A DNA stretch of 39,883 bases from contig MRSU01001119.1 in assembly GCA_008369845.1 (NCBI GenBank), forward strand, positions 1 to 39,883, in the 5' to 3' direction. The first letter of the stretch is position 1, and each line of letters starts with the position of its first letter. This DNA is from Trichomonas gallinae (taxonomy: Eukaryota). Shown here piece by piece: positions 1 to 39,883 of this stretch. The notes beneath the pieces were generated by a model. The model made no database searches, was not told the DNA's origin, and saw only the letters and a list, made by a program, of their open reading frames with translations. The position numbers and the translations under genes were made by a program.

Positions 1-1800
1 CATAAACAAATTTGAAAGCACTCAGAAAGTTGTTCTAAGGCTATTCAATTGTACCTTGGCTATTGTGCCCTCGGTATAAAATTTATTAGCTATATGTGCT
101 ATAAATATATTATATTTTTTTTCTCAAAATTAATCCCTGTTTTGTTTAATATCGCTGTCAGAGGATTTTTTTCATTAGCAAATCTCTCGTTACATCGATA
201 TTTAATATATAATAAACTGGAAACGGTTATTTTATTTTTTTGATAAAAATATCGCTTATTGGTTTGCATTAAAATGAAGATAAAGTTTTATTACAATTAT
301 TTCTGAATGCGCACCGTGCTTTTTGAATTAATTTGATAATGTTATCAAATTCTCACAAATTGACCAATTGTCTTTTCCAACTAGTACTTATTATATATTA
401 ATCTATAAACACCAAATTTACAATCAATGATATTTTTTAAAGTTCCAAAAATTTCAAAAATTTATTAAAAAATTGATTTCAGAACATTTTCACCAAAATA
501 TATAATTTATGGCCTTCATACGGAGTTATAGTCTTGTTGCTGCAATTAAATTTTTAACTTAGTTTTATTGAAGTTCAATATTCCGAATTTTGGATTTAAT
601 TAATTAAATAAATCAATATTATACACGATATGCAGCCTATATTTCCGCAAAAAAGTTCCTATTATCAATAGCCGTATTGGAATCGTAGATCAAATGCAAA
701 ACAGGCTGCGAGACATGATAAGTCAACTATTTTCAGCCTATTTCATGAATATTCTTAGAGAAGCAATCAAGATATGAACTTTGAGAGAATTTTACGTTTG
801 ACAAAAGGATTTTCTTTATGATCAATTTCGTGCTCATTTTATTCATATCAATCTGTGGAATTTAATTTGATTGTAAAACGTTCCAGAAGTGAAATTTTCA
901 AAATATTTTTGGCCATGGATTTCTGCATGCAGTATTTCTGATGCTTAGTATGATACATCAAGTCGCATCGGCATCAGATACACATTCAAAGTTTGAAATT
1001 GAATGAAATTTTTGTGTAGAACGCTGATAGCGGCAAAAAACAGATTCAAAAAAACGACTTTTGCTAAATCATAAAATCATTCATACAATGAATAGATTTA
1101 TTGGTGCTTTAGTTATTTTTCAAATCAAAAATACCACAATCCACTAATAATTTCGAGAACCAATTAATTTCTTTCGTTTTTTGAACCAAATCTAGTTGAT
1201 ATGCTCATTTTTGTGGAAGATAAAGATTTTCATAAATAGCAAATACTCCAATTCAATAATATATATTTCTGTTGATTTTAAATATTTGCTTTTTGAATTA
1301 AATGTAACTGATATTTTAATTTGTGCAGTATATAAAGCATATTTCGAGCTACCAGGAAGCAATTTCTTTAATATTTTTTTGAAGTAATTTAAATTTTTGA
1401 GTAGTCCAATGCAGATCAAATTATTTTATACATTCAATAGAGTATAAACTTAATATAATTGTTACAGGTCACAGTTCGCAAAATATCTTTTGTTGTTTCT
1501 ATGATGTGTTTTTCAGACTAAATCCCATTATATTATGAATTTAATAAAGATTGAAAGCGTGATACAATTGGAAAAATTGATTAAACTCAACTTTTTTGAA
1601 ACAATAATTATATAAACAAAATCGACTCATATTTTTAATATTGTAACAAGGTGGTGGATCTATATTCATTGGCAGACAAATAAAACCATGGATTAACGAT
1701 CTTTTAGGTTTTTCTTTTTGAGGACTTGTTTGGTCACTTTTAAGATATTTTATAAGAGACTTCATCCAATAAATATATTTTATTACCCACATCTGTTATT
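1..1800 (-). pseudogene. Possible highly decayed ankyrin/DUF3447-type gene remnant
   Basis: Minus-strand fragments resemble ankyrin motifs: IIKLI-(frameshift)-KHGA at ~305-340, NERFANEKNPLTAI at ~150-195, and LPGSSKYAL at ~1330-1360 (compare ITKDTPKYAV in the 18661 gene). Many stops and frameshifts; limits are uncertain. Confidence 0.3.
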
Positions 1801-2185
1801 TTTTTTTATTGTAACATAAATTGACAGACAAAATTTGACATAGTTAAACATAGATAAATTATGTATTATATTAAATGACGATTAATCTTAGTTTTGAATA
1901 AATTTTTGAATGTCTCGATCTGACGACCATTTATCTTTATTCTTGATAATTTTGATTAATATATGATGTTAATTGTATTATGTTATTTATGCAACGTTAG
2001 AAATTTTTGCAAATATTAAATATTTGGTTATTATATGTCATATTTTTATATCATAATTTGTCAGACATAGAAATAAGTACGTTTTTCTCAAAATTGAAAG
2101 CAATCAATTAAAACCCGAAAGTTGCTCTACTATTATAGACAAATAACATTGTAAAAATTTTATTTTTTTCTTCCTAAAATAAAAA

Positions 2186-5100
2186 ATGAGGTCTAAAACA
2201 ATGCCACCATTATCTTTAACTCCAGCTTATAACTCAGACTTCCACCAGCTTGATGTGTCAGTCATGGATCGTGAGTTATACTCATTCCCTTTTGATAATA
2301 CAACTATTGGACAAGTAATTCTAGATTTAATGGAGTTTAAGGGCATTGACAACTATGTGGCACTTGTTGATAACTCACCGAAAACAAATATGATACCAAT
2401 TTACGTTTCTTCTCCGGTAACAGAAATTTTGAATCTGATAAAAGACAACGATCAGTTCCCAACGACTCCACTATCAAATAAATTGCAGCCAAATAGAAAT
2501 GTATCGACAAGAAAACAGCGTTTTACGATTTATATTGTTTCAATTCCAGATTACCAAAATTTATTGGAGATTCAGTCCTTAAATTTAACAACAAAGAGTA
2601 TTCTTAAACGTGCCAAGCGACATAAAATCAATATTTTATTACCAAATCACTCAGTTATTAAATATAATTTAGACCCATCACGAACATTTAAAGAAATCAA
2701 CGACAATATATTTCAGAAGCTATGCAAAATCTACGGCTCAAATAACATTGCTAAACCTGACCATTTTGTTCTAAGAATCGCTGATTCAAAATTCGAATAT
2801 AAAAGTAGCGAAGAAACGTTTCAAGAGTGCCCAGAAATGGTGGCGGCGCTTGAGAAACAGGTTAGAAACCCAGAATTTATCATATTTAGCTTATATATGA
2901 CTTGCAATCCGAATAATTTCCTCGAAACGATTGTAAATGACGCAAAAGAGCTTGATCTCTCTTTGCCGCAACTCTCTCTTGAAACACAAAGTCTCTACGC
3001 CTCAATGTCTAAGAATCGTCACATTGTTGAATCCGAGAGAAATAATAAAATTTCAAATAACCCGTTATTAGCGAGAATGCGTATTTCACAGACAGATCCG
3101 CCACTTTATACATGCACCAAGACCAATGTCGCCATTAAATGCGAGCTTAGAGCAGGAATAACGGAAGCAACAGTTACAGGTGCTTCAATTCAAGTTTCTT
3201 ATCTTGTATCAGCGGATCAAGCAATCCAGCAGCTCATATCTAGAATAGAAAATCACTCGAAAATCAATATAGGTAAAGATGCATCAGAATTTGTTTTATT
3301 AGTTACAGGAACAGACGAAGTCATCGCAGGAGAATACAATTTAGTCGAATTCATGTCCGTAAGACAGTTCCTTGTATCAAATCAGCCTGTTATGAATGTA
3401 ACTCTCGCGTTAAAATCTCAAATCATCGATTCAATCAAAAATAAAGAACTTGCAGCTACGCCAATGGAAGAACCAGATGAGTCTGATTTCGTTCCAAGTA
3501 TTACAGCTACGTCTCAAGGATCACTTTGTATTTCAAATCTTAAATTAACAACGCCAATGTCGATTATGATACGTAGCTTCAAGCATTTTCCGGCGAGTGT
3601 CAAAAATGTAGGTGTCACAGTTGCTATTATCAACGGAACACAGACGATTTGCGATCCAGTGACTTTACCAGTGCAAAAAGGCGGCTCTAAACACATTCTT
3701 ATCAACCAGTCAGTATCGTTCTCAGCAACACCGCGTGTTTTACCAAGATCTGCTAGATTATCAATTTCTGTTTTTGATTATGATCAGAGAAAGAAATATT
3801 TGAAAAAGCCAAAGAAAAAGAAAGCTAATGGTAACATTGCCAGCATGAATTTCCCGCTGTTTACACATGACGGTTGGCTAAATCAAGGTTCAATGAAGAG
3901 AAAAATGTGGCCAAAGCATTATTTGGACTTCTTCCTTACAACATCACAGTCCAATGAATCTGGATCAGTTGTTTGTAACTTCGATCTTCCAATTTACAGA
4001 TTCCCAGTATTTCATCAAGTTCCAGAAGTTCGTCCTCCATCAAACAGAGTTTCACTGCATCTTAAAATCGAAGAAATTAAGCGTCTTGGTCAGCTAGAAA
4101 ACCTCGACGTCCTTCAAACTTTGAGCGCAGAAGATAAAACTCTTATTTGGAACAACAGAGCGAAGTACTTGAGTGACACACAGATGCTTCCTTTAGTTCT
4201 ACAGTCATTAGATTACACTAGTCCACTTCAAGTTGCCGAAATTCCTTATATTCTAAAAGAATGGGCTCCAATTTCATCAACAGAAGCATTATCGTTGTTA
4301 GATCCGAAATTCGCTGACTTAGACGTCAGAAAATACGCTGTATCAAGGCTAGAAAATCTAAACGACAACGAACTCATGCTCTACATGCTGCAGCTCGTCC
4401 AGGCTCTTAAATTTGAGCTCTATGACGACTCTCCTTTAGCACACTTCTTATTAAGACGCGGACTTGCTGAGCCGAAGTTCTTGGGACACCAGTTGTTCTG
4501 GCAGCTGATATCTGAGGCCCACATTTCTCAGATCAGACAGAGATTCTCGGCTGTTTTAGTCAACTTCATTTACGGAATCGGAAGCTACAGGAAGGAGCTG
4601 AAAACAGGCTACAGATTCACACAGAAGCTCGTCGAACTCAATCAGGATTTGTGCAAGTTATCACACATCGAAGCGACTGAGCAGTTCAAGATCAAGCTGA
4701 AAGACGTAGAAATTCCAGACGAATTCCATCTGCCCATGGACCCAAGATTAGTTGTCGACTCATTCATTTTAGAAGACTGCAAAGTCATGAACTCCAAGAA
4801 GAAGCCTTTCTGGCTCACATTCCACAACGCAGCTCCTTTCTCGACAGAGCCAGTCAAAACGATGTTCAAAGTCGGCGACGACTTAAGACAAGACCAGTTG
4901 ACTTTACAGATCATGAAAGTCATGGAGCATCTCTGGCGCCAGAACCAGGTGGATTTGAGAATGAACTGCTATGGTGTCTTGCCAACTGGCTTCAACCAAG
5001 GATTCATCGAAGTTGTTCCAAACTCAATAACAGAGCAAGTCCTGCAGCAGGAAGGAGGAAGATGGACTGGCGTTTTCAAGACGAACACTATGAAAGATTT

Positions 5101-15782: not shown

Positions 15783-16606
15783 CATGAAGAAAAAAGTTAA
15801 AAAAAAATATGATGGTTGTTGACTATTGTCATATTCCAAATTCATATTTTCTTTATCGAAGCATGCACGAGATTATATCACATATCAAACAAACATGTTA
15901 ACGCTTACATTTCTAATTTTCAATATTCATAAAATACAAATCATTAAACTATTATTTTAGAATGATGTGCAATATGATCACTCGATCAATTGCATTAGAT
16001 TAATGCTGAATGAAATAATATATATCTTTCTTTTTGTTGAATATTGAATTTATTTGAAGCAATTTATATTTCGAATTTTCAAGCTACAATCATTGACCAT
16101 CGTCCAAATATAGATTTATACTTCTAATTATTAAAACCATTCTTTAGTTTTCACAGGTAAATCATACAAGAAATGATATTACCACACGATTCAATCATTT
16201 GCAACGTCCATATTGAAACAGACAAATTCTCTTGCTTAAAGCGTTTTCACATTATCAATAATTTTCAAAAATTATCGATCAAAGCACAATCACGCATGTA
16301 TATATATTCATTCATAGTAACATTCATAAATAATATGAGCATTAATTTGTAATCCTTTTTGAATTTTCTCACGCAGATTGTTGTAAGTTCTGACTATATT
16401 ATGGATGACACTAGATGAGTCCATTAAACTCAAAATCATTTTAGCAGCCAAAGGTTTATCCCCAATCATATTGACTAAATAGAGAAAAAATATTTTGACA
16501 AATATATTGGTTCGATTCACGCAAACTGTTTGGGTTCCATTAATAAAAACATGGTTTTGACTTTAACATGTAGAATGTGATATTTAGCATGAATACAAAA
16601 ATCGCA

Positions 16607-18661
16607 TTAAATCTTAAAATATTTTGTTGGATGTTTATCTTCTGGTTTTCTCTTATTGAGCAGAAGATTGGCTGGTATTTCACCACGCAGTGCATTGATG
16701 TGTAATTCGCTTTTTCTATCCCACGCAAGCTTTAAAGGAGTTCTATAACAAAAAAGATGAATACCATTTGAAATAAAAGAATTTCTCCAAGATCTAAATT
16801 TATATCTGCACCGTTATCTAGAACGATTTTGATGAGCAAGAAGTCATTATTCCATAAGTAAAGAGAAAGAGGACAATCAAATGTAGTTTTGTCCCTAGGA
16901 ATTTTCATATTTACATTAGTTCCATGCTTTAAAAGATATTCTAGTATTTCATATGATTTGTGCTCCTCGCAAGCCAAAAAAATTCCGCCAAAGTTGATAT
17001 CGCATCCATGCTCAACGAGAATTTTCACAATTTCTAGTCTATTCGTTGCAATTGCTGCTGTCATTAGTTCGTTTTTGTTCACATCTGCCCCATTTTCAAC
17101 TAAAACTCTGACAATTTCTTCTTTCTTTTGCACAATTGCGTCTTGTAGAGGAAGAATTACATCATCATTTGTGTCGACATCACTGTAGGTATCATTGATA
17201 TCTATTCCTTTTTCTATCAAATACTTCAAGATTTCGACATCGCCGCGTTTTATTGCAGCAGCGAGAGGACTTATTTCAGTCTCGTAATACGCGAAATATT
17301 GTTTGTATTCGTGATCAATTTTTGCACCTTTGTCAACTAAGAATTTGATTATTTCCAATGAAGAATGCAGAATAGCATCAATTAAACAGCTTTGATGATA
17401 AAATTAAAAATGAATTACATATTTTTCGCCAGCTTCATCGTCATCAACTCTCGCTTTTTCATAAGAATAAAGAAAATCTTTGTTGATGTCTGCGCAATAA
17501 TCAACAAGAATTTTAACAATATCTAATTTCTTTGTCATGACAGCATAGGAAAGAGGAATGCTTTCAGCACCATTGTCTTCTTTAAGTGGTTCAACTAAAT
17601 AAACAAATAAATGAATTTTGTAAATAAAATATAAACATCATAAACAATATTAACATCAGCTCCTTGTTTCACGAAAAAAGAAACAACTTCAAATGACCCT
17701 GTTTTAATTGCAGATTTAAGAGCATTACCTTGATGAAATTATTAATGAATAAATCCATTATATATAAATAAATGTTATGAAAAAATGAATGAATTTCGTC
17801 TGTGTAAAGTTCGTCTATGTCATAACCGTTTTCGAAAAAGAAACTTGCAGCCTGAAAGTTTCCCCACTGTATGCATTCACCCACAGAGATTCCTGTGGAC
17901 CCATAGTGCTCCATTATCCAGTCAGCGACATGGTTCTGGTTGCCCCTCACAGCGTAAATTAAAAAATTTTCAAACGAAATTCCATGATGACCTAAAGTCG
18001 CAATTATCTCCATGTTGCCACTTTCAACAGCGTATTTTGGGGTATCTTTTGTAATTTTAGACCCATTCACAAGAAAGAACTTAAAAGATTTCGCAGCTCC
18101 CAATTTGCACGCGCAATCAATTAATGTTAAATTAGGATAATTATATAAAGTCATATTCCAATCAAAATTTTCGATGTTTTTGATTTTATCTGTTATTCCA
18201 TCTATGTTGTCATTATATATAAAATTCAATGAACTGCCTTCATCAAATATACTTCGAAAGTAATAACCTAAAGTTAAAATAGAATTTCCATAATCTTTGA
18301 ATAATCTGTCATAATCACCGGATTTATATTCATCATACCCCGGGAAGTATTTAATCTCGTAGTAATCAATGAGTAATTTAAATAAATCGGAATAAAAAAT
18401 TATATTTCTAAATCGTATTGAGCAGACGAGTTCTAGTATATCATAGATATAATTTTCTGAAGTGATACCTTCAGTAATAGCTTTTTTTATAATTTCGAAT
18501 GTTTCTTCAACAGAATTTTTATTCTTTTCTCTATTCCAGATCAAATCGCATACTTTATGTATTTTTCTAAATGGTGTCGATACTTCCATGTCCGCAATCT
18601 CCTTATATCTGAGACTATAAGTGTCAATAGTGTTTGAAAATGCAATTTTCATTTTTGGCAA
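16607..18661 (-). CDS. DUF3447-type ankyrin-repeat protein split into 5 coding blocks (18661-17795, 17729-17637, 17595-17419, 17391-16783, 16744-16607; ~627 aa joined)
   Basis: The N-terminal block has LIDCACKLGAAKSFKFF-x-KYAVESGNMEII. Later blocks are ankyrin repeats (GNALKSAIKTGSFEVVSFFVKQGADVN; IPLSYAVMTKKLDIVKILVDYCADIN; SPLAAAIKRGDVEILKYLIEKGIDIN; RTPLKLAW), each stop-free but offset by AT-rich inserts. A pseudogene is the alternative reading. Confidence 0.75.
16745..16782 (-). other. Non-canonical intron-like insert 4 (~38 nt, ATTCTT...GTTAT)
   Basis: Removal joins ...GADINLDLGE to RTPLKLAW; internal AATGG as in insert 1. Confidence 0.6.
17392..17418 (-). other. Non-canonical intron-like insert 3 (24-27 nt, (GTA)ATTCATTTTTAATTTTATCATCAA)
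   Basis: In frame but contains TAA at 17404-17406; the 29-nt GT-AG version is out of frame. Confidence 0.5.
17596..17636 (-). other. Non-canonical intron-like insert 2 (41 nt, GTTTAT...TTTA)
   Basis: Removal joins ...NIVYD to VEPLKED...; the 42-nt GT-AG version is out of frame. Confidence 0.6.
17730..17794 (-). other. Non-canonical intron-like insert 1 (65 nt, ATTCATTC...TTCATCAA)
   Basis: Removal joins ...YTDE to GNALKSA...; U/A-rich with an internal AATGG; exact ends may slide. Confidence 0.6.
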
Positions 18662-18939
18662 TTTTATAAATTTTACTTGACAAAAAAATATTTACATGGC
18701 AAAAACATTACATCTAAATTATTTTGCTGTAAAATTACGCATATTTGCAATTCTTGTTCAAATTACATTATGAGTAGTGTGATACAACCTTATAATGACG
18801 AAAATTTCTATAACCTTTGCAAAGGATAAAAAATGAGAATATTTTTCTGCAAATTTGCAGATTCAGATGAAAAATGATGATGACTGATTTAAAAAATATT
18901 AATGAACAGAATTTATTATAAAAAAACAACGAAAAAATT

Positions 18940-21900
18940 CTATGACTTCAGCATTCTTTTGATTGACAAGTCTTTGGTTGTCTTTGATTGGTCCTCATTT
19001 GATACAATCTTTGGAGCTTCGATGACTTTCTTCTTTATGACTTTCGGAGATGCGTGGATCTTTGTCGGCGTCTCAACTTCGACTTCTTTATGCTTCTGAG
19101 GTGTTGATGGCGTCGGGTTCAAAAACTGTGGAGTTGTTGACGGTTGTGCAGCAAGTGTCTGTATTGAAGGAATCGTCTGCATAACAGGGACCTGGATCTT
19201 ATTGACTGTGTTGACTTTAACAACAGTTGGCTGCGACGTTTCTCTTGTAGTGTGAATTAATATATTTGGTGTGGGAGGAGTCTCTCTCACTGGGTGAACA
19301 ATAATATTAGGCGTTGCCGGCTGCGCGTGAATCTGAGGTGACTGGCTGACTTGGTGTACTACTGGCGTTGATGGCGCGTGTACAACGACAGGAGTACTTG
19401 GAGCTGCATGCGGTGTTGCCGGAAGAGGAGGCAGCTGGTTGTTGGCCTGTATTGAAGGAAGATGGCTTTGTATAGGAATGGTTGGAACAGGAGGCATTCT
19501 TGAGATCATAGGAATTGAAGCAGGCTGTGGTGGCTGCTGAGCTGGTTGTTGTTGTGGCTGCCTTTGTTGCTGCTGCTGTTGTTGCATAAGCTGTAGTGCT
19601 CTGAGGCTGGCTTCTGGAGAGTCCTGGGCAATACATTTGACATAAAAGTCCCACTTCATCTTTGCCTGTGCGTCTTCTGTTTTAACAGGCTGCGGTAGTG
19701 GTGTTGCTTTTGGTCTGGCCTGTCTTCTTGGCGCTCTTTGTGTTGTCTCTGTCTCCGAGAATTCCCTGAATACGTAGCCTTGGCATTTGTCGGCGTTCTT
19801 CATGTGTTGGATGACGTAAATTGTTTCGGGTGCAGCCAGTCCGTAATAATCAGGTCCTGAAATACTCAACTGTTTCGCGGCATCATTTTCTCTCATCTTC
19901 TGGACGATTTTCAAGATCATTGACCACGGAGACGTTGGCGAGACTCCTTCGAATGAAATCTCCGGATTCTTCTCGTTCGTGACCCTAAACAATGGACCTG
20001 GGCCGCCGTTGTCGATGATTTCGCAGATGTATTTAACTCTTTCGCTCGGATTAATTGTTGACCTGTACTGCTTCGTTATCTTGTAGCCGGCCGGGTAGAT
20101 ATACTTCTCCGTGTGGAATCCTGGCCTGTCATAAACAATCGTGCCGAAAGAAAGGATGCATGACGATGGCGTCAGATTTAACGGCAGCTCTGGCAAACCA
20201 TCTTCATTCAGCCTGATGTTAGGTAACGGCAAAGCGTCTGATGTCGGCGTTGGTCTTCTCTTGACTCTCGCAGCGTCTTGTTCTTTGAGCTGCTCGAGTG
20301 GAGTGTTTTCTATCAAGTCGAGGCAGACCATCAAACGCTTCATGACCCTGATATCGTTTGTCACAAACTGAGGCGGTTTTTCGCCAACAATCGGAACAAA
20401 CTCTTCCTGCTTGAGAATGTCCGCACACTGGCCCCATCCGCGCTCTGATATTGCCTTGAAGAACTTGAACTCTATCTCGTTCGTCCACAAGTTGGGAACA
20501 TTCCTCCACCTTGGCATTGTCTCGAAATATTCTTTGAGTTTTTCATCGCCGTGCTTCAGGAATAACCTTCTTAGTCTTGTCAAGCTTTCAACTCTCTGTT
20601 TGAGCCTGTTTGCCTGTGACTCATCTTCTCCATCCTTTTGTTTGGACTTCTTCTTCGATTTTTCCTCAGATTTCTCTTCGGTTTCAGGTTTCTCGGTTTC
20701 CTCGGTTTTTGCTTTTTCTTCAGTTTCTTCTTCTTTTTCCTTTTCTTCACTTTTCTCTTTTTCTTCGTTTTTCTCTTTGTTTTCAGCATCCTTTCCATCT
20801 AATATCTCCTTTACGTATGCCTCCATCTGCGCGTCTGTCTTCTCCGTGAATCCAGTCATCTCCCTGAATTTGTCCCAGTCGAATTCACCGTCATCTTTCA
20901 GCGGAATTCCCTGGTGCTGGAGCAGGTTGACAACTGAGCTCTTGTCACGCTTCTTCCACGTCATTGGGCCGCGTGCCTTCCTCGCTTTGTAGTTCGGTGC
21001 GTTCTCGTCCAGCTCTCCGTTTATCAGCTTCCTCGTATCCAAAGCGATTCTCTTCAGTCTTGGCGTCAGATTCGCCGTTGAAGGCGGATCAAGAGATTTG
21101 TCTTTCATGAACGTCCACGGGATTTCATTATCATTCAGCATCTTCTCGTAGTTCGCAAAGCCGCATTTATATGTTCCGAAGACGAGGCACTTGTCGTCGT
21201 TCTCAGTCCACCATGGCGCAGGGGGTTGAGTGTGGCATGGAGGGATTGTTATTTCGTCGATGTTGTTGTTCGACGATTTCACTGCTTGAGATACGTAATA
21301 CAAAACTTCCAGGCGCCTGATCCATGACACTGAGTTGTGCTGCAGCTGCTGAACGAACTCATCCTCGTTTATCCTGAGAATCGAGCACATCTCGTTGTCC
21401 CTGTTTACTGCGTCTTCTTCGTTCGTGAATTTTTCGTCGAAAGTTGTCGTCATTGCGTCTTCCATCAATGTCTGGGCTGTCTCCATGTCTGTCTTATCCT
21501 GAGCATGCTGCATGATCTGCCTGAGAAAGGCTCTGGCGGCGAGTTTGACTTCATTCACTGGTTTTGACAAACTTAAAACTGATGCGATTTCCCAGCGGCC
21601 CCATCCGTATCTGAAAAGCAGTTGTTGCAGTCTTTCTCTGTCTCTGTGTGACCAGCTGCCCTTTGGAGGCTCGCCTTCTTCCTCTTCATCTGATTCTTTG
21701 AAATTAACATCGGCTTTCTTGCGGATTCTGACATTTGTGAGGCCTGCATATTCGCCTATTTCCTCTTCTTCGGCCGCCTGAGCGTTTGGAAGAATCTTTT
21801 GCCAAAATTCAGGATCATCGATGTCAATATTCATGTTTTCGTCGACATCGAACTGAGCCTTTGAGAACATTGAGCCTGCTGCTTCATTGATGACCATTGT

Positions 21901-24027: not shown

Positions 24028-24339
24028 TTTATCTTTTTAATGGTCTTAAAAAAAAATTTAAAATGGCTTCATTTCAAATCAGGAAACATGACATGCAAAA
24101 GTGACAATAATTGTAAAAAGTTTACGTGTCAAATATTTTATATATCAAATTAAATCAACGATCAAAGGCGCTGATCCCCAATTTCTGAGATATGTAAGGA
24201 TTCCACTGGGAAGACTATGTGGCCAAACCTTTGGACGATCTGTGAAATATATTTATGTCAACTATCTCTTGAAAAAATTTAAGAATCGCGATTATCAAGT
24301 GACAGAAAAGAGATTTTTGACGCGTAAAATTGATAAATG

Positions 24340-24697
24340 AGATGTCAAAAAATGACGTTCATTCATCGATTTGATTGCATCAACATTATTCAAATATACA
24401 GTATCGAATATTTGATTGTTGCCATCTTTGTCTTTTCCTTCAGTATTTGTATCATGCTCAATCAACTTTGTGATAGATCCAACTTTGAATTCAAAAATGC
24501 GGTATCAAATAATGGAGTGTAGCTATGACTGTCTTTTACTATAATGTATGCACCAAATACATCTAACTCTGCAGTGATGGTATCAATATAACTCTGCCTT
24601 GCAACATAAGATAATGGAATTTTGTCATTACTATCTTTTGCTGTACTCTTTGAGGTAAGTTTACATTCTTTTTTGTCAAGAATATTAGTTTGAATAC
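24340..24697 (-). pseudogene. Ankyrin-repeat gene fragment (relic)
   Basis: Minus-strand translation AKDSNDKIPLSYVA...FGAYIIVKDSHSYTPLFDTA, then a frameshift to KLIEHDTNTEGKDKDGNNQIFDTV; stop at 24462-24464; no start codon. Confidence 0.75.
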
Positions 24698-24906
24698 TTT
24701 ACGTGTCATTTTTGGTTGTTGAGAAAAAAATTTTTTTTTGGTTGGAACAAATTGATTGATTGTGGAACATTTTTAATTTATCATAAAACGATGAAAACAA
24801 CGATGTATTGGGTTCTCAAAATGTTGACGGTTGGAATTTTCAAAATTTATCTGTGTCATTAGATCTATCATTTTGTGCTAAGTTTAAATTGAGAGAAAGA
24901 TTTCAG

Positions 24907-26874
24907 ATGAATAAATACCTCGAATTTCTCCTCCGCTTGGTGAAGCCAACGGTTAGGATTATACCATATATAATAACGCAGTATTCATGGCTTGGTATTA
25001 TATATCTGCTGTATCCACTTACTTTCAATGCGATATATCCAGATATAAAAACTTCAATTTCACCGATAACACATACAACAAATTGGAAATTAGAAACAGA
25101 TCCACTGATTTTAGCACATTTAACAGATATACATATTAAAGCTGACTGGAATCAACCAGTTGATAATTTCAAAAACGCAAGAGATAAAGTTGTTTACAAT
25201 ATAAAGCCTGATTGGGTTATACTTACTGGTGATCTTTGTGATAACTTCCCAGGAGGCGGATTTCCACGTTATTCTCAACAAGTTACTGAAGAATTTGAAA
25301 TTTACAGGCATGAAACAGAGAATTTCTCAAGATTTAACTTCTTTGATATGGCTGGAAATCATGATGAGATTGGTGTTTGGAGGTTTAATGATAAAGGTCA
25401 CTTATTTATGCAGGGAAAGAACATTACAAAGGATGAATTCCTTGTTTCTAGGAAGAAAGTCACATATAATGGTAAGAATATTTACTTTATCATTGTTAAT
25501 CCATTCGAATGGCCGTCTGCACATTTGAATTTCAATTTTTATCCACATTCAAACAAGAAACTCTTAAATATGATCGAAAAGCAATACGAAGGCATCACAA
25601 AAGACGATATTGTTGTTGTTTATTCGCATTTCCCATTAACTTTTTATGATAATTCGAAATCATCGAAAGGCCGCAAATTCATTGATATGATCCGCAAATC
25701 AGACTTCCCGCAGTATTTTATCAGCGGTCACAACCACCCACCAACTCCATTCATCTTCCATCATGAAGAAAATCTCGAAATTATCGGAACAGACTTGATT
25801 TTCCACAACAGATTCGGAATCATTTCATTCGACCACGACAGATTCGTTTACACAAGCATCGACAACAAGAATTTCACACCTTATGTTATCACTTCCCCAG
25901 TCCCAGAGAAGTTAATTACTAAACATAACCCAGTTGACGAGCAAAAATCATATGTAAGGATTCGCGCCTACACAGAAAAATTACCAAGCATCAGAATAAC
26001 TGGCGCTTTCGAGGCGGACATGGAGTGCAGAAAGGCAAATGATGGAAATGGATATGTTTGCAACGCTCCTTACGACCTCAAAGAAGGCAACCACACGATT
26101 TTCTTCAGTGGTGATTTTAACTCAAATCTTACATTTATTGTCGGCACCAAAACTGTCACTGTGACTGAAGTTGAGCCAAAAGACACGCACTACATGTTCC
26201 ATTACTGGAATCTGCTGATATTGTACATTCCAATTATTATAATGGTGCTTCCAATTCCTATGCCAAAGATCGTCGAGGAGACAGAAGATTGGATCTGCAA
26301 GAAGACTGATGAAGGATACTTCGCATGGAAGCGCTGGCTTATCACTATCCTGCTATTCCCGTTGCTGTTCAAGCAGAGAGTGAACAAGTTAGCTTTGTGG
26401 CTGAGAATTGTTGTTTATTTAGCTGTATTGTGGCCGTGCATTCTTCCTCACACTTTCCTGGAATTTGGCGGACATCCAGGCTTCCTTTGGATGTGGGGAG
26501 CTGTCTCCGACTGGAAGAATGTCTATGATATTCAGGCCCCAATATACTGCACTAACTATATCCTATGGGTTCTATATCCGTGCTTGATTGCTTTAGTCCA
26601 GTCTGGAGTCAACAATGACCTCTTGGGAATCTTTACTTGGGTCGACGGATACTACGCGTATTACTGCATCACGCGTAACATGAACTTCACTACATACCAG
26701 CTCATTATGACTGCTGGTTTCGTGTTAGCAAAATGTTCACTCGGCCAAGTCGTTTTGCCTGTTGTTTGGTGGTCTATTGCCATTTTGTATAAAGTTTACA
26801 AGACAATTTGGCCACCTAAGGAGCCTGAATACAGTTTGGATAGTGCTGAATTGCTATCTACTCCCCCAATTTAG
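24907..26874 (+). CDS. TMEM62-like calcineurin-type metallophosphoesterase with C-terminal TM segments
   Basis: Motifs HLTDIH, LTGDLCD, AGNHD, SHFP and SGHNH; N-terminal hydrophobic anchor and several C-terminal TM helices. First ATG is at 24907; the track start at 24808 is TTG. Confidence 0.85.
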   Translation: MNKYLEFLLRLVKPTVRIIPYIITQYSWLGIIYLLYPLTFNAIYPDIKTSISPITHTTNWKLETDPLILAHLTDIHIKADWNQPVDNFKNARDKVVYNIKPDWVILTGDLCDNFPGGGFPRYSQQVTEEFEIYRHETENFSRFNFFDMAGNHDEIGVWRFNDKGHLFMQGKNITKDEFLVSRKKVTYNGKNIYFIIVNPFEWPSAHLNFNFYPHSNKKLLNMIEKQYEGITKDDIVVVYSHFPLTFYDNSKSSKGRKFIDMIRKSDFPQYFISGHNHPPTPFIFHHEENLEIIGTDLIFHNRFGIISFDHDRFVYTSIDNKNFTPYVITSPVPEKLITKHNPVDEQKSYVRIRAYTEKLPSIRITGAFEADMECRKANDGNGYVCNAPYDLKEGNHTIFFSGDFNSNLTFIVGTKTVTVTEVEPKDTHYMFHYWNLLILYIPIIIMVLPIPMPKIVEETEDWICKKTDEGYFAWKRWLITILLFPLLFKQRVNKLALWLRIVVYLAVLWPCILPHTFLEFGGHPGFLWMWGAVSDWKNVYDIQAPIYCTNYILWVLYPCLIALVQSGVNNDLLGIFTWVDGYYAYYCITRNMNFTTYQLIMTAGFVLAKCSLGQVVLPVVWWSIAILYKVYKTIWPPKEPEYSLDSAELLSTPPI

Positions 26875-26898
26875 TAAAAATGCATTTCTATAACATTA

Positions 26899-27181
26899 TC
26901 TATAGAAGCAACTTATAAAGAAGGTAAGACTGCATTAATAATGGCTGCATTTTAAGAAAGAACTTATTGTCTAATAAAATCATAGATAACAGATCTAATA
27001 TTGAAACAAAAAAAAATGAAGGTAAGACAGCTTTCATTATAGCTGCATTTTTCAGAAAGAACAAAACTCGTTGATTGCAGATCTAATATTGAAGAGAGAG
27101 GGGAAAAAAAATGATGGTAATAAAGCTTTAAATATGGCCTCGAAATAATAACCTTATGTGTTGTCACTTTTGTATGCACGT
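26899..27181 (+). pseudogene. Ankyrin-repeat relic (about 3 decayed repeats)
   Basis: Translations SIEATYKEGKTALIMAAF*, RSNIETKKNEGKTAFIIAAF and NDGNKALNMASK**PYVLSLLYAR; DNA repeats GAAGGTAAGAC at 26920 and 27018 (98 nt apart) and AGATCTAATATTGAA at 26991 and 27079. Confidence 0.75.
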
Positions 27182-27196
27182 TTATTAATTCGGGTT

Positions 27197-28162
27197 TTGT
27201 CAGCGAGAAGTAGTAGCAGGTCATCACCGAGCAAGACAAGCTCACCATCGAGAGAGGGCTCTGGATATTCTTTTATTCCACAACCTCGCGGTGAAATTTC
27301 GACTCCGATCAATCAGATTAACGTGAATCAAAACTACCTTCCAAAATCTGTTACTTTTACATCAAGAAATCGTTTTGTCGAAGGAACAGAGAACATAACA
27401 ACTAAGAATATTACTCCAATTGTCAAATCAAGAAAAATTCTTGTAAATTCATCCGAAAAGTCACCAAATAATTATCCAGAAGACACAGATTCCGGTCTTT
27501 TGATTGGTAGCAAGTTCGAATATTCTCCAATTTCAGAAGACACCCATACAATCTCTAATTTCACGCCAAGAAAGATGAACGATACAAGCGGTTTTGAAAT
27601 GATGCCAGTTTCTGAGCCAAACCCTGAAAGCAAAATATCGGTTGATACAATTATTCCAAAATCGAAGCTCATTTCTGACGAGGAAGAAGAAGAATTAGTG
27701 GAAGAGGAGGATAATACCGAAACTCACTTCAATAACTCAGACAGTGACACTTTTAATGAACATATCTTAACAGGCAGTCTTCAGCAGATATCTGACTTGA
27801 AATCAGATTCTGATCATGATGAGAAGATTGCTGCGCTTGAAGAAGAGAACAAAAAGCTCAAAGAAAACCAAAATGTTTTAATTAGCGTAATTAAAGAACT
27901 AACAACTTCAATCATGTCAGGCTTCGGCTATGAGTCGAATTATAACTATGAGTCTCTTGTAGAAGGCAGAGAAGCCCAGAATTTCGTTGAAGAAATTAAA
28001 TCCGTTCTTTCAGCAGGAATTGCGAGCGCTACTAAAGACTCCCAGAAGCTAGGCGTGTCCACAGATGTTAGACGCTACATGGACCAAATTTCGAGACAAA
28101 TCGAAAATTATCAAAATAATCTGCAGAAACAGCACCAAGAGATCATGGAAGCTCTTAAATAA
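27197..28162 (+). CDS. Ser-rich, acidic hypothetical protein with C-terminal coiled coils; start uncertain
   Basis: Long open frame with coding-like composition and heptads (IAALEEENKKLKENQNVLISVIKEL). No in-frame ATG until ~27575; the start is placed at TTG-TCA-GCG (27197) by inference. Confidence 0.6.
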   Translation: MSARSSSRSSPSKTSSPSREGSGYSFIPQPRGEISTPINQINVNQNYLPKSVTFTSRNRFVEGTENITTKNITPIVKSRKILVNSSEKSPNNYPEDTDSGLLIGSKFEYSPISEDTHTISNFTPRKMNDTSGFEMMPVSEPNPESKISVDTIIPKSKLISDEEEEELVEEEDNTETHFNNSDSDTFNEHILTGSLQQISDLKSDSDHDEKIAALEEENKKLKENQNVLISVIKELTTSIMSGFGYESNYNYESLVEGREAQNFVEEIKSVLSAGIASATKDSQKLGVSTDVRRYMDQISRQIENYQNNLQKQHQEIMEALK

Positions 28163-28230: not shown

Positions 28231-29557
28231 TCATCTGGTTGAAGGCAGGCATAAACTGAGCATGAACGTGCGGGGCTTGAGTATGTCCTCTACGAACATT
28301 GGGAAGTCTTCAGGAACGGTAAGTTCAGCAAGATTTCCGTGCATCTTATATGATTTTGCGACAACGGCGAGTATTTCAAACGAATTTGCGCGTAATGCGC
28401 TGATGGCATCGCTGTTTGCCATCTCAAATAAAGGATTAATGAGATTTTGGGCAAATTGATGTCTAAGATGTTCATTTTCCAATGAAAAGACGATCAGATC
28501 CTTTATTTTGTTTTGCAATGACGTGTGGTCTGGGAATTGCGCGAGTAAACGTAGAATTACTTGGTGGAAGCTGGTCTGATTAAGTACGGTCGCAAGATTT
28601 ACGTTATATTTAAGCATATCGGTTATTATAGCTAGAGCTGATAGTTTTGCATTGGTTATTTTTGTAAATGGCTCCGTCAGCTGAGAAATAATATGAGAAA
28701 TGTAAGGATTGAAATGTTTCGATGTAGATTTCTGGTGAAGTGCGGCAAGTGCTGCCCATCTCGCATCTTCGATGTTATCGTGCCAGAAATACACTCTTGA
28801 GAAAAATGAATGCATAATCGGGCATTTGAAAGCGTGCTCGATAAAAAGGGGGCTGGAAGCTGCTTTAGCGATGACATAGAATATGCCTATGAGATGCTGG
28901 ACTTCCTTGCTTGCATATGGATTTTCGATATTTTCGACGACGTCACAAAATTTGCGATTTCCGACGTACGTTAACAATATTGGGACGAATCCTGTTGTAT
29001 ATATGACTTTTTGCGCATGTTTATATGCTTTATCATCGGCTAAGATTGTTGCGAAAAAATCACGGGCAGGTTGAAGCGAAACGAACTGGATGAGTTGGAA
29101 TACGATACCATTGAGGTTCTCTGAAAACTTTCCTAACTTAGATATTGAGATCGAAATCAAATCCGCGAGACGACTCAGGATATGTGACGCAGGCTCTTGT
29201 GTCGCGAGGACATTTCGGGCAAATTCGGTTATATTCTTGTCTGTGAGTGTAAGTTTGAGACATTTATGTGGCGCAAAGCTTAAAATTTCGGTAATACGAT
29301 TATTAATATCTTTGCTCTCATGATCAAAAGCTGTTTTAATCACATCATCGGCATGGTCTATAAAACTGTTTGTTAGAAAATAAGATGTACTATTTGCAAA
29401 CATGAGGATTCTGCTGATAAAGGAGATATACTGTGCTTTTCATTGTCAAAGCCTTTTCGAAGGGGACCTCCTCAGACTCAAACAAGACAGTATCGCCCAG
29501 CAGCTCAGCGAAAGGGGGAGCAACTGGAACGCCTGCTTCAGACGGTTTGTATTCCAT
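28231..29557 (-). CDS. Two-exon gene (29557-29391, 29365-28231; 433 aa); helical-repeat protein, probably a divergent SAPS/PP6 regulatory subunit-like protein
   Basis: Upstream ATG 29557 frame MEYKPSEAG...QQNPHVCK joins through a 25-nt intron to YFIDHADDVIK. The PFEKAL...QNPHVCKYF...ITEILS pattern recalls SAPS N-termini (family call is tentative). Confidence 0.8.
29366..29390 (-). other. 25-nt spliceosomal intron (trichomonad short type)
   Basis: GTACATCTTATTTTCTAACAAACAG: GT donor, TCTAAC branch point adjacent to AACAG acceptor; removal turns TA|G stop into TAT and restores the frame. Confidence 0.92.
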
Positions 29558-39215: not shown

Positions 39216-39712
39216 TGTTTCTTGCGTCGAATTTTTTGAAAAGAGGAGGTAATTTTTTCATAGAAAAAAGTTTTCTATAATCTATACCTTATATAAATAA
39301 TATATTTAATTAAAAATTCATTATATTTATTTTTATTATAAAAATAGCATATTTATAATGTATAAATGATATTTTTGGGGTGAATCCGCTTATTTATGAA
39401 AACTTCAAATTTTCAATTTTTGCTTTTTCAGAGAATTTGAGGTTGAACGCGTTATATTTCGGATATAGCACTCGCACATATTCAATGTGTCTTTGATTTT
39501 TCCGATCATATTTTTTCATAAAAAAAAATCTAAAAATTTGAGCAAAATATTTATAAATTCATAATATATATAATGATAATATGTGGAATTTATAAAAATT
39601 TTTATATATTTACGCTGATATTTTTTTATTTCATATTGAATTTGTTTATTTTTTAGTTATAGTAAACTAGAATAAAGAGAAGAAATTTAAAACATAGTAT
39701 AAAATAACATTT

Positions 39713-39883
39713 TTAGTTGCGTTCGCCGCGAATGCGCTGAGCGAGCTGGACATCACGCTCCATGATTGTAACACGGTTAGCGTGGATGGCGCAAAGGTTT
39801 GTGTCCTCGAAGAGGCCGACGAGGTAAGCTTCAGAAGCTTCCTGGAGGGCAGCAATAGCGGAGGACTGGAAACGAAGATCACC
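39713..39883 (-). CDS. H3: Histone H3, 3' portion (gene extends beyond the window)
   Basis: Frame not in the ORF track: [56 protein letters not shown]; strong codon bias; stop TAA lies within TAAA. Confidence 0.97.

What the first reader, a model, noticed from the sequence alone, without database searches (positions are those of the whole stretch)
16607..18661. Ankyrin gene interrupted by four non-canonical intron-like inserts: possible unrecognised splicing or recoding system
Seen: four U/A-rich inserts (17730-17794, 17596-17636, 17392-17418, 16745-16782). Each lies in the linker between ankyrin repeats, after the G-x-D-I/V-N/D motif and before the next TPL-like helix. Each can start at a codon boundary with RTTYWT (ATTCAT, GTTTAT, ATTCAT, ATTCTT). 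Inserts 1 and 3 end in TCATCAA; inserts 1 and 4 follow GAA and carry an internal AATGG. Three are 3n+2 long and one holds an in-frame TAA. The five coding blocks have no other lesion and join to ~627 aa. None has the CTAAC...AG signal of trichomonad spliceosomal introns (compare 29366-29390). An AG lies 1-2 nt beyond each 3' end, but adjacent GT-AG pairs give the wrong frame; the only in-frame one for insert 1 would delete YDIDELYTDE. Inference: position-specific, signal-bearing inserts between clean exons fit processed intervening sequences (non-GT-AG splicing, ribosomal bypass or frameshifting, or a regulated switch) better than random decay.
Basis: partly seen in the sequence, partly recalled or inferred. 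Interest (0 to 1): 0.88.

Follow-up and report, generated by a model that had tools for sequence, protein, structure and literature searches.

The report
Non-GT-AG inserts in trichomonad ankyrin genes
An ankyrin-repeat gene of a trichomonad protist is broken by four short U-rich inserts that share an 18-base end signal, yet the coding pieces behind them still evolve like working protein code, so the inserts are likely cut out of the RNA by an undescribed non-GT-AG kind of splicing, and related genes, two of them in Trichomonas vaginalis, appear to carry similar inserts.

Summary
The four inserts are real and are neither assembly errors nor decay. An independent ~93%-identical contig holds all four, one of them 1 nt longer and one with an earlier stop. 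The blocks behind them show 24 synonymous against 10 non-synonymous changes (pN/pS 0.11, P=7e-10), so they are most likely translated. No insert has the trichomonad CTAAC/AG signal, and no GT-AG pair restores a sensible frame. New here: every insert ends near a module ATTCAT-N9-YAT in the downstream frame; 5 of 7 matches in the 40-kb window lie in the inserts. All can start at phase-0 RTWYWD, the type B donor with G or A at +1. The pattern looks family-wide: 27 of 149 homologues end in U-rich-coded tails (interior control 3.75%), including two T. vaginalis G3 proteins. No RNA was available, so the mechanism is inferred: non-canonical RT...AT splicing (0.5) or ribosomal bypassing (0.27). I found no description in ten literature searches, and the scan's earlier notes hold nothing on it.

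The parts
17795..18652 (-). Block 1: ATG, N-terminal region, DUF3447 domain and first ankyrin repeat (286 aa)
   Evidence: Pfam PF11929 E=5.5e-7; orthologue P0001 93% identical, same start
17733..17794 (-). ATTCAT-N9-YAT modules at 17777-17794 and 17733-17750; the second holds TAA TAA in the downstream frame
   Evidence: the orthologue has 4 listed substitutions, one making an earlier in-frame stop
17637..17732 (-). Block 2: one ankyrin repeat (31-32 aa), with no Met
   Evidence: Pfam Ank E=0.0015, below the curated cut-off; 2 synonymous and 1 non-synonymous change
17599..17636 (-). Starts GTTTAT, a full type B donor match, and ends GTTTAT; module at 17599-17616
   Evidence: 1 nt longer in the orthologue
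17419..17598 (-). Block 3: long linker, one ankyrin repeat, long acidic linker (59-60 aa)
   Evidence: Pfam Ank E=0.0012; 6 synonymous and 2 non-synonymous changes
17395..17418 (-). Insert 3 (18-27 nt depending on the ends): GTA, then the module at 17398-17415 with an in-frame TAA, then CAT
   Evidence: no listed difference in the orthologue
16783..17394 (-). Block 4: about six ankyrin repeats (203-204 aa)
   Evidence: Pfam Ank_2 E=2.5e-27; 11 differences in 191 aa from orthologue P0002
16745..16782 (-). Insert 4 (38 nt): starts ATTCTT, module at 16745-16762
   Evidence: 2 listed substitutions plus 1 inferred from P0002, none in the fixed module positions
16607..16744 (-). Block 5: TPL-starting last helix, C-terminal tail and stop codon (45 aa)
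   Evidence: no Pfam hit; 4 synonymous and 2 non-synonymous listed changes, P=0.02
29366..29390 (-). Control: an ordinary 25-nt type B trichomonad intron (GTACAT...TCTAACAAACAG) in another gene
   Evidence: motifs from PMC12316389

Best explanation
The four U-rich inserts share a phase-0 RTWYWD start and an ATTCAT-N9-YAT end module, sit in ankyrin inter-repeat linkers between blocks under protein-level selection, and are likely a separate class of short introns removed from the pre-mRNA at RT...AT ends to give one 624-628-aa DUF3447-ankyrin protein. Shown: the inserts, the motifs, their presence in an orthologue, their change of length and frame, and selection on the downstream blocks. Inferred: that removal happens on RNA; that the 5' motif works as a relaxed type B donor (GTWYWD with A allowed at +1); that the 18-nt module replaces the fused CTAAC/AG signal as the 3' determinant; that the trichomonad spliceosome, perhaps with a special 3'-end factor, does the cutting; and that the inserts spread at one phase-0 position through duplication of repeat units.
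For: Selection behind the inserts: 24 synonymous and 10 non-synonymous changes in 729 covered nt of blocks 2-5, pS 0.157, pN 0.017, P=7e-10. Blocks 2+3 alone, from the separate close-up table: 8 and 3, P=3.5e-4. Block 4 is 94% identical in protein, against a neutral simulation mean of 85% and maximum of 93% in 2000 runs. Both orthologues carry all four inserts, so the selection acted with the inserts in place. Length and frame are free: insert 2 is 41 versus 42 nt; P0142 and P0277 (98% identical) read the same insert as IHFFYL-stop versus IHFFIY-RRTPL; TVAG_004680 has a stretch of about 50 codons in frame. ATTCAT is the only hexamer shared by all four inserts (shuffles: 0.0008 for one as informative; 0.0005 for any shared hexamer in one frame within 6 nt). 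5 of 7 window matches of the module lie in the 171 insert bases. All four starts fit RTWYWD and one fits GTWYWD (motif from PMC12316389). The published T. vaginalis intron pipeline discards junctions that lack the known motifs (99.7% filtered), and the long-read study removed such alignments in the same way, so such introns would be missed.
Against: No spliced read, transcript or spliced protein was seen. The inserts lack the CTAAC branch site and an in-frame AG, which all 63 validated T. vaginalis introns have. A minimal insert of 18-21 nt (insert 3, P0277) leaves little room for a separate donor and branch site. Long reads show mature unspliced T. vaginalis mRNAs across split genes, ankyrin genes among them, although these were not shown to be insert-bearing genes. 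An AG ends 2-5 nt after the YAT in 4 of 4 inserts and is unexplained (about 2e-4 post hoc from exon frequency). TVAG_004680's long insert does not end in an in-frame IH-xxx-Y/H hexapeptide, so the 18-nt spacing is not shown outside this gene, its orthologue and P0277. The family-level phase-0 signature rests on translated tails, not on DNA.
Confidence: 0.5

Rival explanations
1. Programmed ribosomal bypassing: the inserts stay in the mRNA, and the ribosome takes off on an early insert codon (CAT or TAT after an Ile/Val codon) and lands on the matching YAT codon at the end of the module, as in T4 gene 60 or the Magnusiomyces mitochondrial inserts, but on cytosolic ribosomes.
For: Both motifs lie in codon register, the 5' motif in the upstream frame and the module in the downstream frame. 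Matched pairs exist: CAT/CAT in insert 1, GTT TAT/GTT TAT in insert 2, CAT/CAT in insert 3. Bypassing can resume in any frame (PMC5009743 passages). Unspliced mRNAs over split T. vaginalis genes are reported.
Against: Insert 4 has no match to its terminal TAT, only ATT/ATT or CTT/CTT at the module start. Codon matches are easy to get in U-rich text, and I did not compute their chance rate. The first insert codons are not followed by a stop, ATT is a common codon, and no insert folds better than shuffles (z 0.02 to 1.78). Four hops in a row would be costly. A phase-0 intron with a fixed module-to-end distance explains the register equally well.
Confidence: 0.27
2. The inserts are internal RNA-processing or switch sites (cleavage/polyadenylation or initiator-like TCATT), or the blocks serve as cassettes joined by trans-splicing or by DNA-level gene conversion, so that full-length protein comes by another route.
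For: Three of four inserts hold the initiator-like TCA[CT][TA], and AATT followed by a U-rich tract resembles the trichomonad cleavage context (both motifs recalled, not from a call).
Against: Block 2 is 31 aa without Met, so it cannot be a gene of its own. The blocks lie in order in one complete gene with a start and a C-terminal cap. No insert-free copy was seen among the fetched proteins, though no genome could be searched.
Confidence: 0.1
3. Ordinary spliceosomal introns that use the nearby AG, with the frame restored by odd 5' cuts (such as AA...AG or AT...AG) or by editing.
For: An AG lies just past every insert and none lies inside one; inserts 2 and 4 end in a U-rich tract followed by TAG.
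Against: The in-frame donors would be AAATTC or ATTCAT (insert 1), ATGTTT (2), AATTCA (3) and AATTCT (4), which are not in one register to the shared motif. The absence of AG inside the inserts is expected from composition (P=0.067).
Confidence: 0.09
4. A decayed pseudogene or an assembly artefact.
For: Trichomonad genomes hold many broken genes, and this window has three decayed ankyrin or DUF3447-like remnants.
Against: pN/pS 0.11 behind the first insert, with no stop or frameshift seen in blocks 2-5 of the orthologue; 85% of neutral simulations of block 4 gain a stop; the same inserts lie in an independent assembly. The window's true remnants have scattered lesions inside repeats and no module match.
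Confidence: 0.04

Closest known systems
T. vaginalis type B spliceosomal introns (PMC12316389: abstract, Results part 1 of 2, passages, supplement rows; PMC6260720: passages, supplement search)
   Same: Short, U-rich, low-GC; the degenerate donor GTWYWD resembles the inserts' RTWYWD; some lie in ankyrin genes at phase 0.
   Different: Type B introns are 23-26 nt, GT-AG, with TCTAAC fused to the 3' end, and occur one per gene. The inserts are 18-65 nt or more, lack CTAAC and an in-frame AG, mostly start with AT, carry ATTCAT-N9-YAT and occur four to a gene.
Trichomonas 'split' or readthrough (RT) genes (bioRxiv 10.64898/2026.08.31.748405: first quarter of the text, Discussion, passages; supplements closed)
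   Same: One protein spread over adjacent predicted ORFs, ankyrin genes included; translation of the downstream part is proposed.
   Different: They are explained as stop-codon readthrough, with no insert class, motif or linker position described in the parts read. Simple readthrough cannot cross 3n+2 inserts. The closed supplementary tables may list insert-bearing genes.
Non-canonical introns of Fritillaria tunicates (PMC13326754, abstract) and Euglena nonconventional introns (PMC12501133, search listing with start of abstract)
   Same: Precedent that eukaryotes remove non-GT-AG introns, in Fritillaria through divergent U2AF heterodimers that read other 3' ends.
   Different: Those are genome-wide classes with their own signals. 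Here the class seems tied to ankyrin linkers in an intron-poor genome, and no end-pairing stem was found.
Translational bypassing: T4 gene 60 and Magnusiomyces capitatus mitochondrial inserts (PMC5009743, passages)
   Same: Short non-coding blocks break the frame, and coding resumes after a matched codon in any frame.
   Different: Known from a phage and from mitochondria, with a stop or unused codon at take-off and, in gene 60, a stem-loop. Neither is seen here, and the gene is nuclear.

Membership tests
Trichomonad type A/B spliceosomal intron | 5' GT in GYAYGY or GTWYWD | tested here: not met
   1 of 4 starts fits GTWYWD; all 4 fit only with R at +1, insert 3 from 17415
Trichomonad type A/B spliceosomal intron | CTAAC branch site fused to the 3' end | tested here: not met
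   no CTAA in 4 of 4 inserts
Trichomonad type A/B spliceosomal intron | 3' AG whose use restores the frame | tested here: not met
   no in-frame GT-AG for inserts 2-4; only a destructive 98-nt pair for insert 1
Any intron | removed from mature RNA | not testable with these tools
   no RNA holder listed
Any intron | length and frame free, flanking exons under coding selection | tested here: met
U12-type intron (consensus recalled) | 5' RTATCCTT and a TCCTTAAC branch site | tested here: not met
   starts are ATTCAT, GTTTAT, ATTCAT, ATTCTT; no TTAAC
Euglenid-type nonconventional intron (feature recalled) | stem that pairs the two ends | tested here: not met
   folding no better than 200 shuffles in 4 of 4
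Programmed translational bypass | [quoted passage not shown] | tested here: inconclusive
   end-matched in 3 of 4 inserts; chance rate not computed
Programmed translational bypass | stop or unused codon after take-off, and a take-off stem-loop | tested here: not met
   no stop follows the first insert codons; no stable fold
Programmed translational bypass | insert kept in translated mRNA | not testable with these tools
   no RNA or ribosome data
Parabasalid DUF3447-ankyrin protein | DUF3447 followed by ankyrin repeats | tested here: met

The most novel reading that the evidence does not exclude
Trichomonads, T. vaginalis included, run an undescribed processing system devoted to their expanded ankyrin gene family: short RT...AT inserts marked by ATTCAT-N9-YAT sit at phase 0 between repeats in a sizeable share of DUF3447-ankyrin genes and are removed by non-canonical splicing or skipped by cytosolic ribosomes, so that many annotated 'split genes' and pseudogenes are working genes and repeat arrays can be shuffled or switched one repeat at a time.
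Probability: 0.65. Interest if true: 0.9.

Novelty: new variant of a known kind. Interest (0 to 1): 0.8.

Why it matters
T. vaginalis is held to have about 63 introns, all GT-AG and one per gene, and its 1,465 'split' genes have been an open question since 2007. This locus gives a defined insert class, a searchable signal and named T. vaginalis test genes (TVAG_004680, TVAG_271400). The question can therefore be settled with existing RNA-seq and long-read data once the motif filter is turned off. Splicing would mean a second intron class in one of the most intron-poor eukaryotes; bypassing would be, to my knowledge, the first programmed case on cytosolic eukaryotic ribosomes. Either way the annotation of a large parabasalid gene family would change.

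Tried and rejected
RNA evidence: no RNA holder was listed, and two small metatranscriptomes of the same study laid nothing; neither is evidence on expression. No whole genome is held for this window, so no genome-wide insert scan was possible. A search for a longer, insert-free relative of block 1 found none among 1,113 candidates (weak). No related locus came from metagenome or viral contigs with the single protein. The 40-sequence alignment was too divergent to search with. A degenerate DUF3447 pattern gave 8 loci: L001, L002 and L005 look parabasalid-like but show no insert next to the match (L001 ends at its contig edge; the L005 print-out was partly cut), and the other five are unrelated or insert-free. 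There is no Rfam match and no stable fold. Rejected: homopolymer error; a fixed single-base frameshift; separate small genes; the absence of AG as a signal (P=0.067). A search among 41 truncated homologues for a close insert-free partner gave none above 69% identity, and P0175/P0189 did not fix a junction. Eight window proteins looked up by identity did not name the species: one was found, without a name. Supplements of PMC6260720 and PMC12316389 do not mention TVAG_004680 or TVAG_271400. The T. foetus, T. musculus and H. meleagridis genome papers (passages) report 7,715 unvalidated, 2,500 and about 600 predicted introns or intron-bearing genes and do not mention ankyrin; whether these include such inserts was not tested. 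No structure prediction or complex job was run.

Full report
Setting. The window is from a trichomonad (Parabasalia): it has intron-poor eukaryotic genes and an ordinary 25-nt type B intron at 29366-29390, and all ten listed Atlas rows for block 1 are mainly Parabasalia. The species was not identified.

Observation. On the minus strand a DUF3447-ankyrin gene (Pfam PF11929 and Ank families) runs from an ATG at 18652 to a stop at 16607. It is cut by four inserts of 65, 41, 27 and 38 nt, 56% T and 5% G, against 31% T and 19% G in the blocks. Without them the blocks read 624 codons with no lesion. All four lie in linkers between repeats (chance about 0.006, linkers drawn by hand). No insert has CTAA. 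An enumeration of about 600-680 frame-restoring boundary pairs per insert gave no GT-AG or GC-AG pair for inserts 2 and 3, and only destructive ones for inserts 1 and 4.

Not an error, not decay. Run X1, labelled a bird metagenome, holds a 31,872-nt contig about 93% identical over 16488-19000 (168 other letters), so it is not the window's own sample. It carries all four inserts. Insert 2 is one base longer, and insert 1 has an earlier in-frame stop, so the predicted protein P0001 ends nine residues into it. Among the listed differences, blocks 2-5 have 24 synonymous and 10 non-synonymous changes over 729 nt (pN/pS 0.11, binomial P=7e-10). Caveat: one search listed 40 of 164 differences and left out at least one inside my range (16763, inferred from P0002), and 288 nt of block 4 were not covered. 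Two checks do not depend on that table. The close-up (18 rows listed, 20 letters counted) gives 8 to 3 for blocks 2+3 (P=3.5e-4). Block 4 differs from P0002 at 11 of 191 residues, where neutral simulation at 6.7% divergence gives a mean identity of 85%, a maximum of 93% and a stop in 85% of 2000 runs. Block 2 alone is not significant (2 to 1, P=0.14); block 5 is weakly so (4 to 2, P=0.02). Since both copies have the inserts, the selection acted with the inserts in place. The window's real ankyrin-like remnants look different, with scattered stops and shifts inside repeats.

Signals. ATTCAT is the only hexamer common to all four inserts. The pattern ATTCAT-N9-YAT has 7 matches in the window on both strands. 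That total is close to chance (shuffle mean 3.4; 6 of 100 shuffles reach 7), but 5 of the 7 lie in the 171 insert bases on the sense strand (0.016 expected from insert composition, post hoc). In inserts 1 and 3 the module holds stop codons, so it is not simply translated. All four inserts can begin at phase 0 with RTWYWD, which is the published type B donor GTWYWD with A allowed at +1. The simplest common ends are therefore RT...YAT: 17794-17733, 17636-17599, 17415(18)-17395(98) and 16782-16745. The true junctions are uncertain by 3-6 nt. The inserts have 9 changes in 171 nt (8 listed, 1 inferred), fewer than synonymous sites (16%), and none falls in the fixed module positions; this last point is not significant alone. 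No insert folds better than shuffles, and none matches Rfam. Unexplained: an AG ends 2-5 nt after the YAT in all four.

Family. A search of 1.84 billion representatives found 598 relatives of the first ORF and listed 150. Of the 149 other than P0001, 27 end in a tail that looks like translated U-rich DNA by a motif-free score, against 108 of 2,880 interior cut points. Thirteen of the 27 had a regex-detected repeat-end motif within 25 residues, and a few (such as P0200, P0201, P0228) are probably not inserts. By a motif-based call, 55 of 149 end within 45 residues of a repeat-end motif and 22 of those have an [IV][HLYQFP]-led U-rich tail; the signature occurs in 27 of 55 terminal and 38 of 242 internal linkers. 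Ile/Val followed by His/Leu/Tyr/Phe is what phase-0 RTWYWD encodes, but the regex selects for it, so this is suggestive only. Of ten proteins looked up, eight are unnamed Logan records and two are T. vaginalis G3: TVAG_004680 and TVAG_271400. TVAG_004680 has an in-frame I/F/Y/H-rich stretch of about 50 codons between a repeat end and TPL, then stops three residues into a second such stretch. The pair P0142/P0277 (98% identical) reads one site as IHFFYL-stop or as IHFFIY-RRTPL, which matches the 18-nt module in frame and implies a one-base length difference; P0277 then stops in a further tail. I could not fetch DNA for any of these homologues.

Mechanism. Translation of the downstream blocks is strongly implied. 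The inserts change frame between close relatives, which rules against a fixed frameshift or plain stop readthrough and points to removal by the ends. I commit to non-canonical splicing at RT...AT ends (0.5): composition, a type B-like donor, a conserved 3'-proximal module and phase-0 placement between repeats all fit introns, and divergent 3'-end recognition has a precedent in Fritillaria (abstract). Ribosomal bypassing (0.27) fits the codon register and matched YAT codons in three of four inserts, but lacks a take-off stop and a stem-loop. Other routes are given under rivals. No RNA could be examined, so the removal step is untested.

Literature. Ten full-text searches showed no description of such inserts in the listings or in the papers opened. 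The library lacks most subscription papers. The T. vaginalis intron survey validated 63 GT-AG introns after discarding 99.7% of junctions that lacked the known motifs. The 2026 readthrough preprint reports 118 unspliced mRNAs over split genes, ankyrin genes among them, after the same filter, and leaves the mechanism open; its closed supplements may bear on novelty. Five look-ups in the scan's earlier notes found nothing on this system.

Verdict. A real, conserved, signal-bearing class of inserts in working trichomonad ankyrin genes. It is not a member of the known trichomonad intron types. It most likely works like a non-canonical intron, with ribosomal bypassing as the main rival. Interest 0.8.

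Noticed in passing
window 24040-24800 (-): Decayed ankyrin-repeat remnant with frameshifts and stops inside repeats, upstream of the chromatin-remodeller-like gene.
   Followed up: partly
window 26870-27150 (+): Decayed ankyrin remnant (GKTAL-type repeats, scattered stops and shifts) directly before the 27152-28162 ORF.
   Followed up: partly
window 1-2200 (-): Heavily decayed region with fragments that look like DUF3447-family sequence by eye; not scanned against Pfam.
   Followed up: no
window 29366-29390 (-): Canonical 25-nt type B intron near the start of a gene; read unspliced it stays in an open frame of the 28231-29439 ORF.
   Followed up: partly
window 16344-16488, run X1 contig: Downstream of the gene the orthologous contig has 447 and 223 other bases at two places, so the intergenic DNA turns over much faster than the inserts.
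   Followed up: no
window 18663-18713: A ~40-nt stretch just upstream of the ATG matches many other contigs of run X1 (summed depth 238 against 27), so it is a dispersed repeat or a shared promoter element.
   Followed up: no
window 39698-39883 (-): C-terminal part of a histone H3-like gene at the window edge (recognised by eye).
   Followed up: no
ESM Atlas rows for block 1: Several Parabasalia clusters of 189-386 aa are DUF3447-like with few or no ankyrin repeats, as expected if gene calls stop at a first insert.
   Followed up: no
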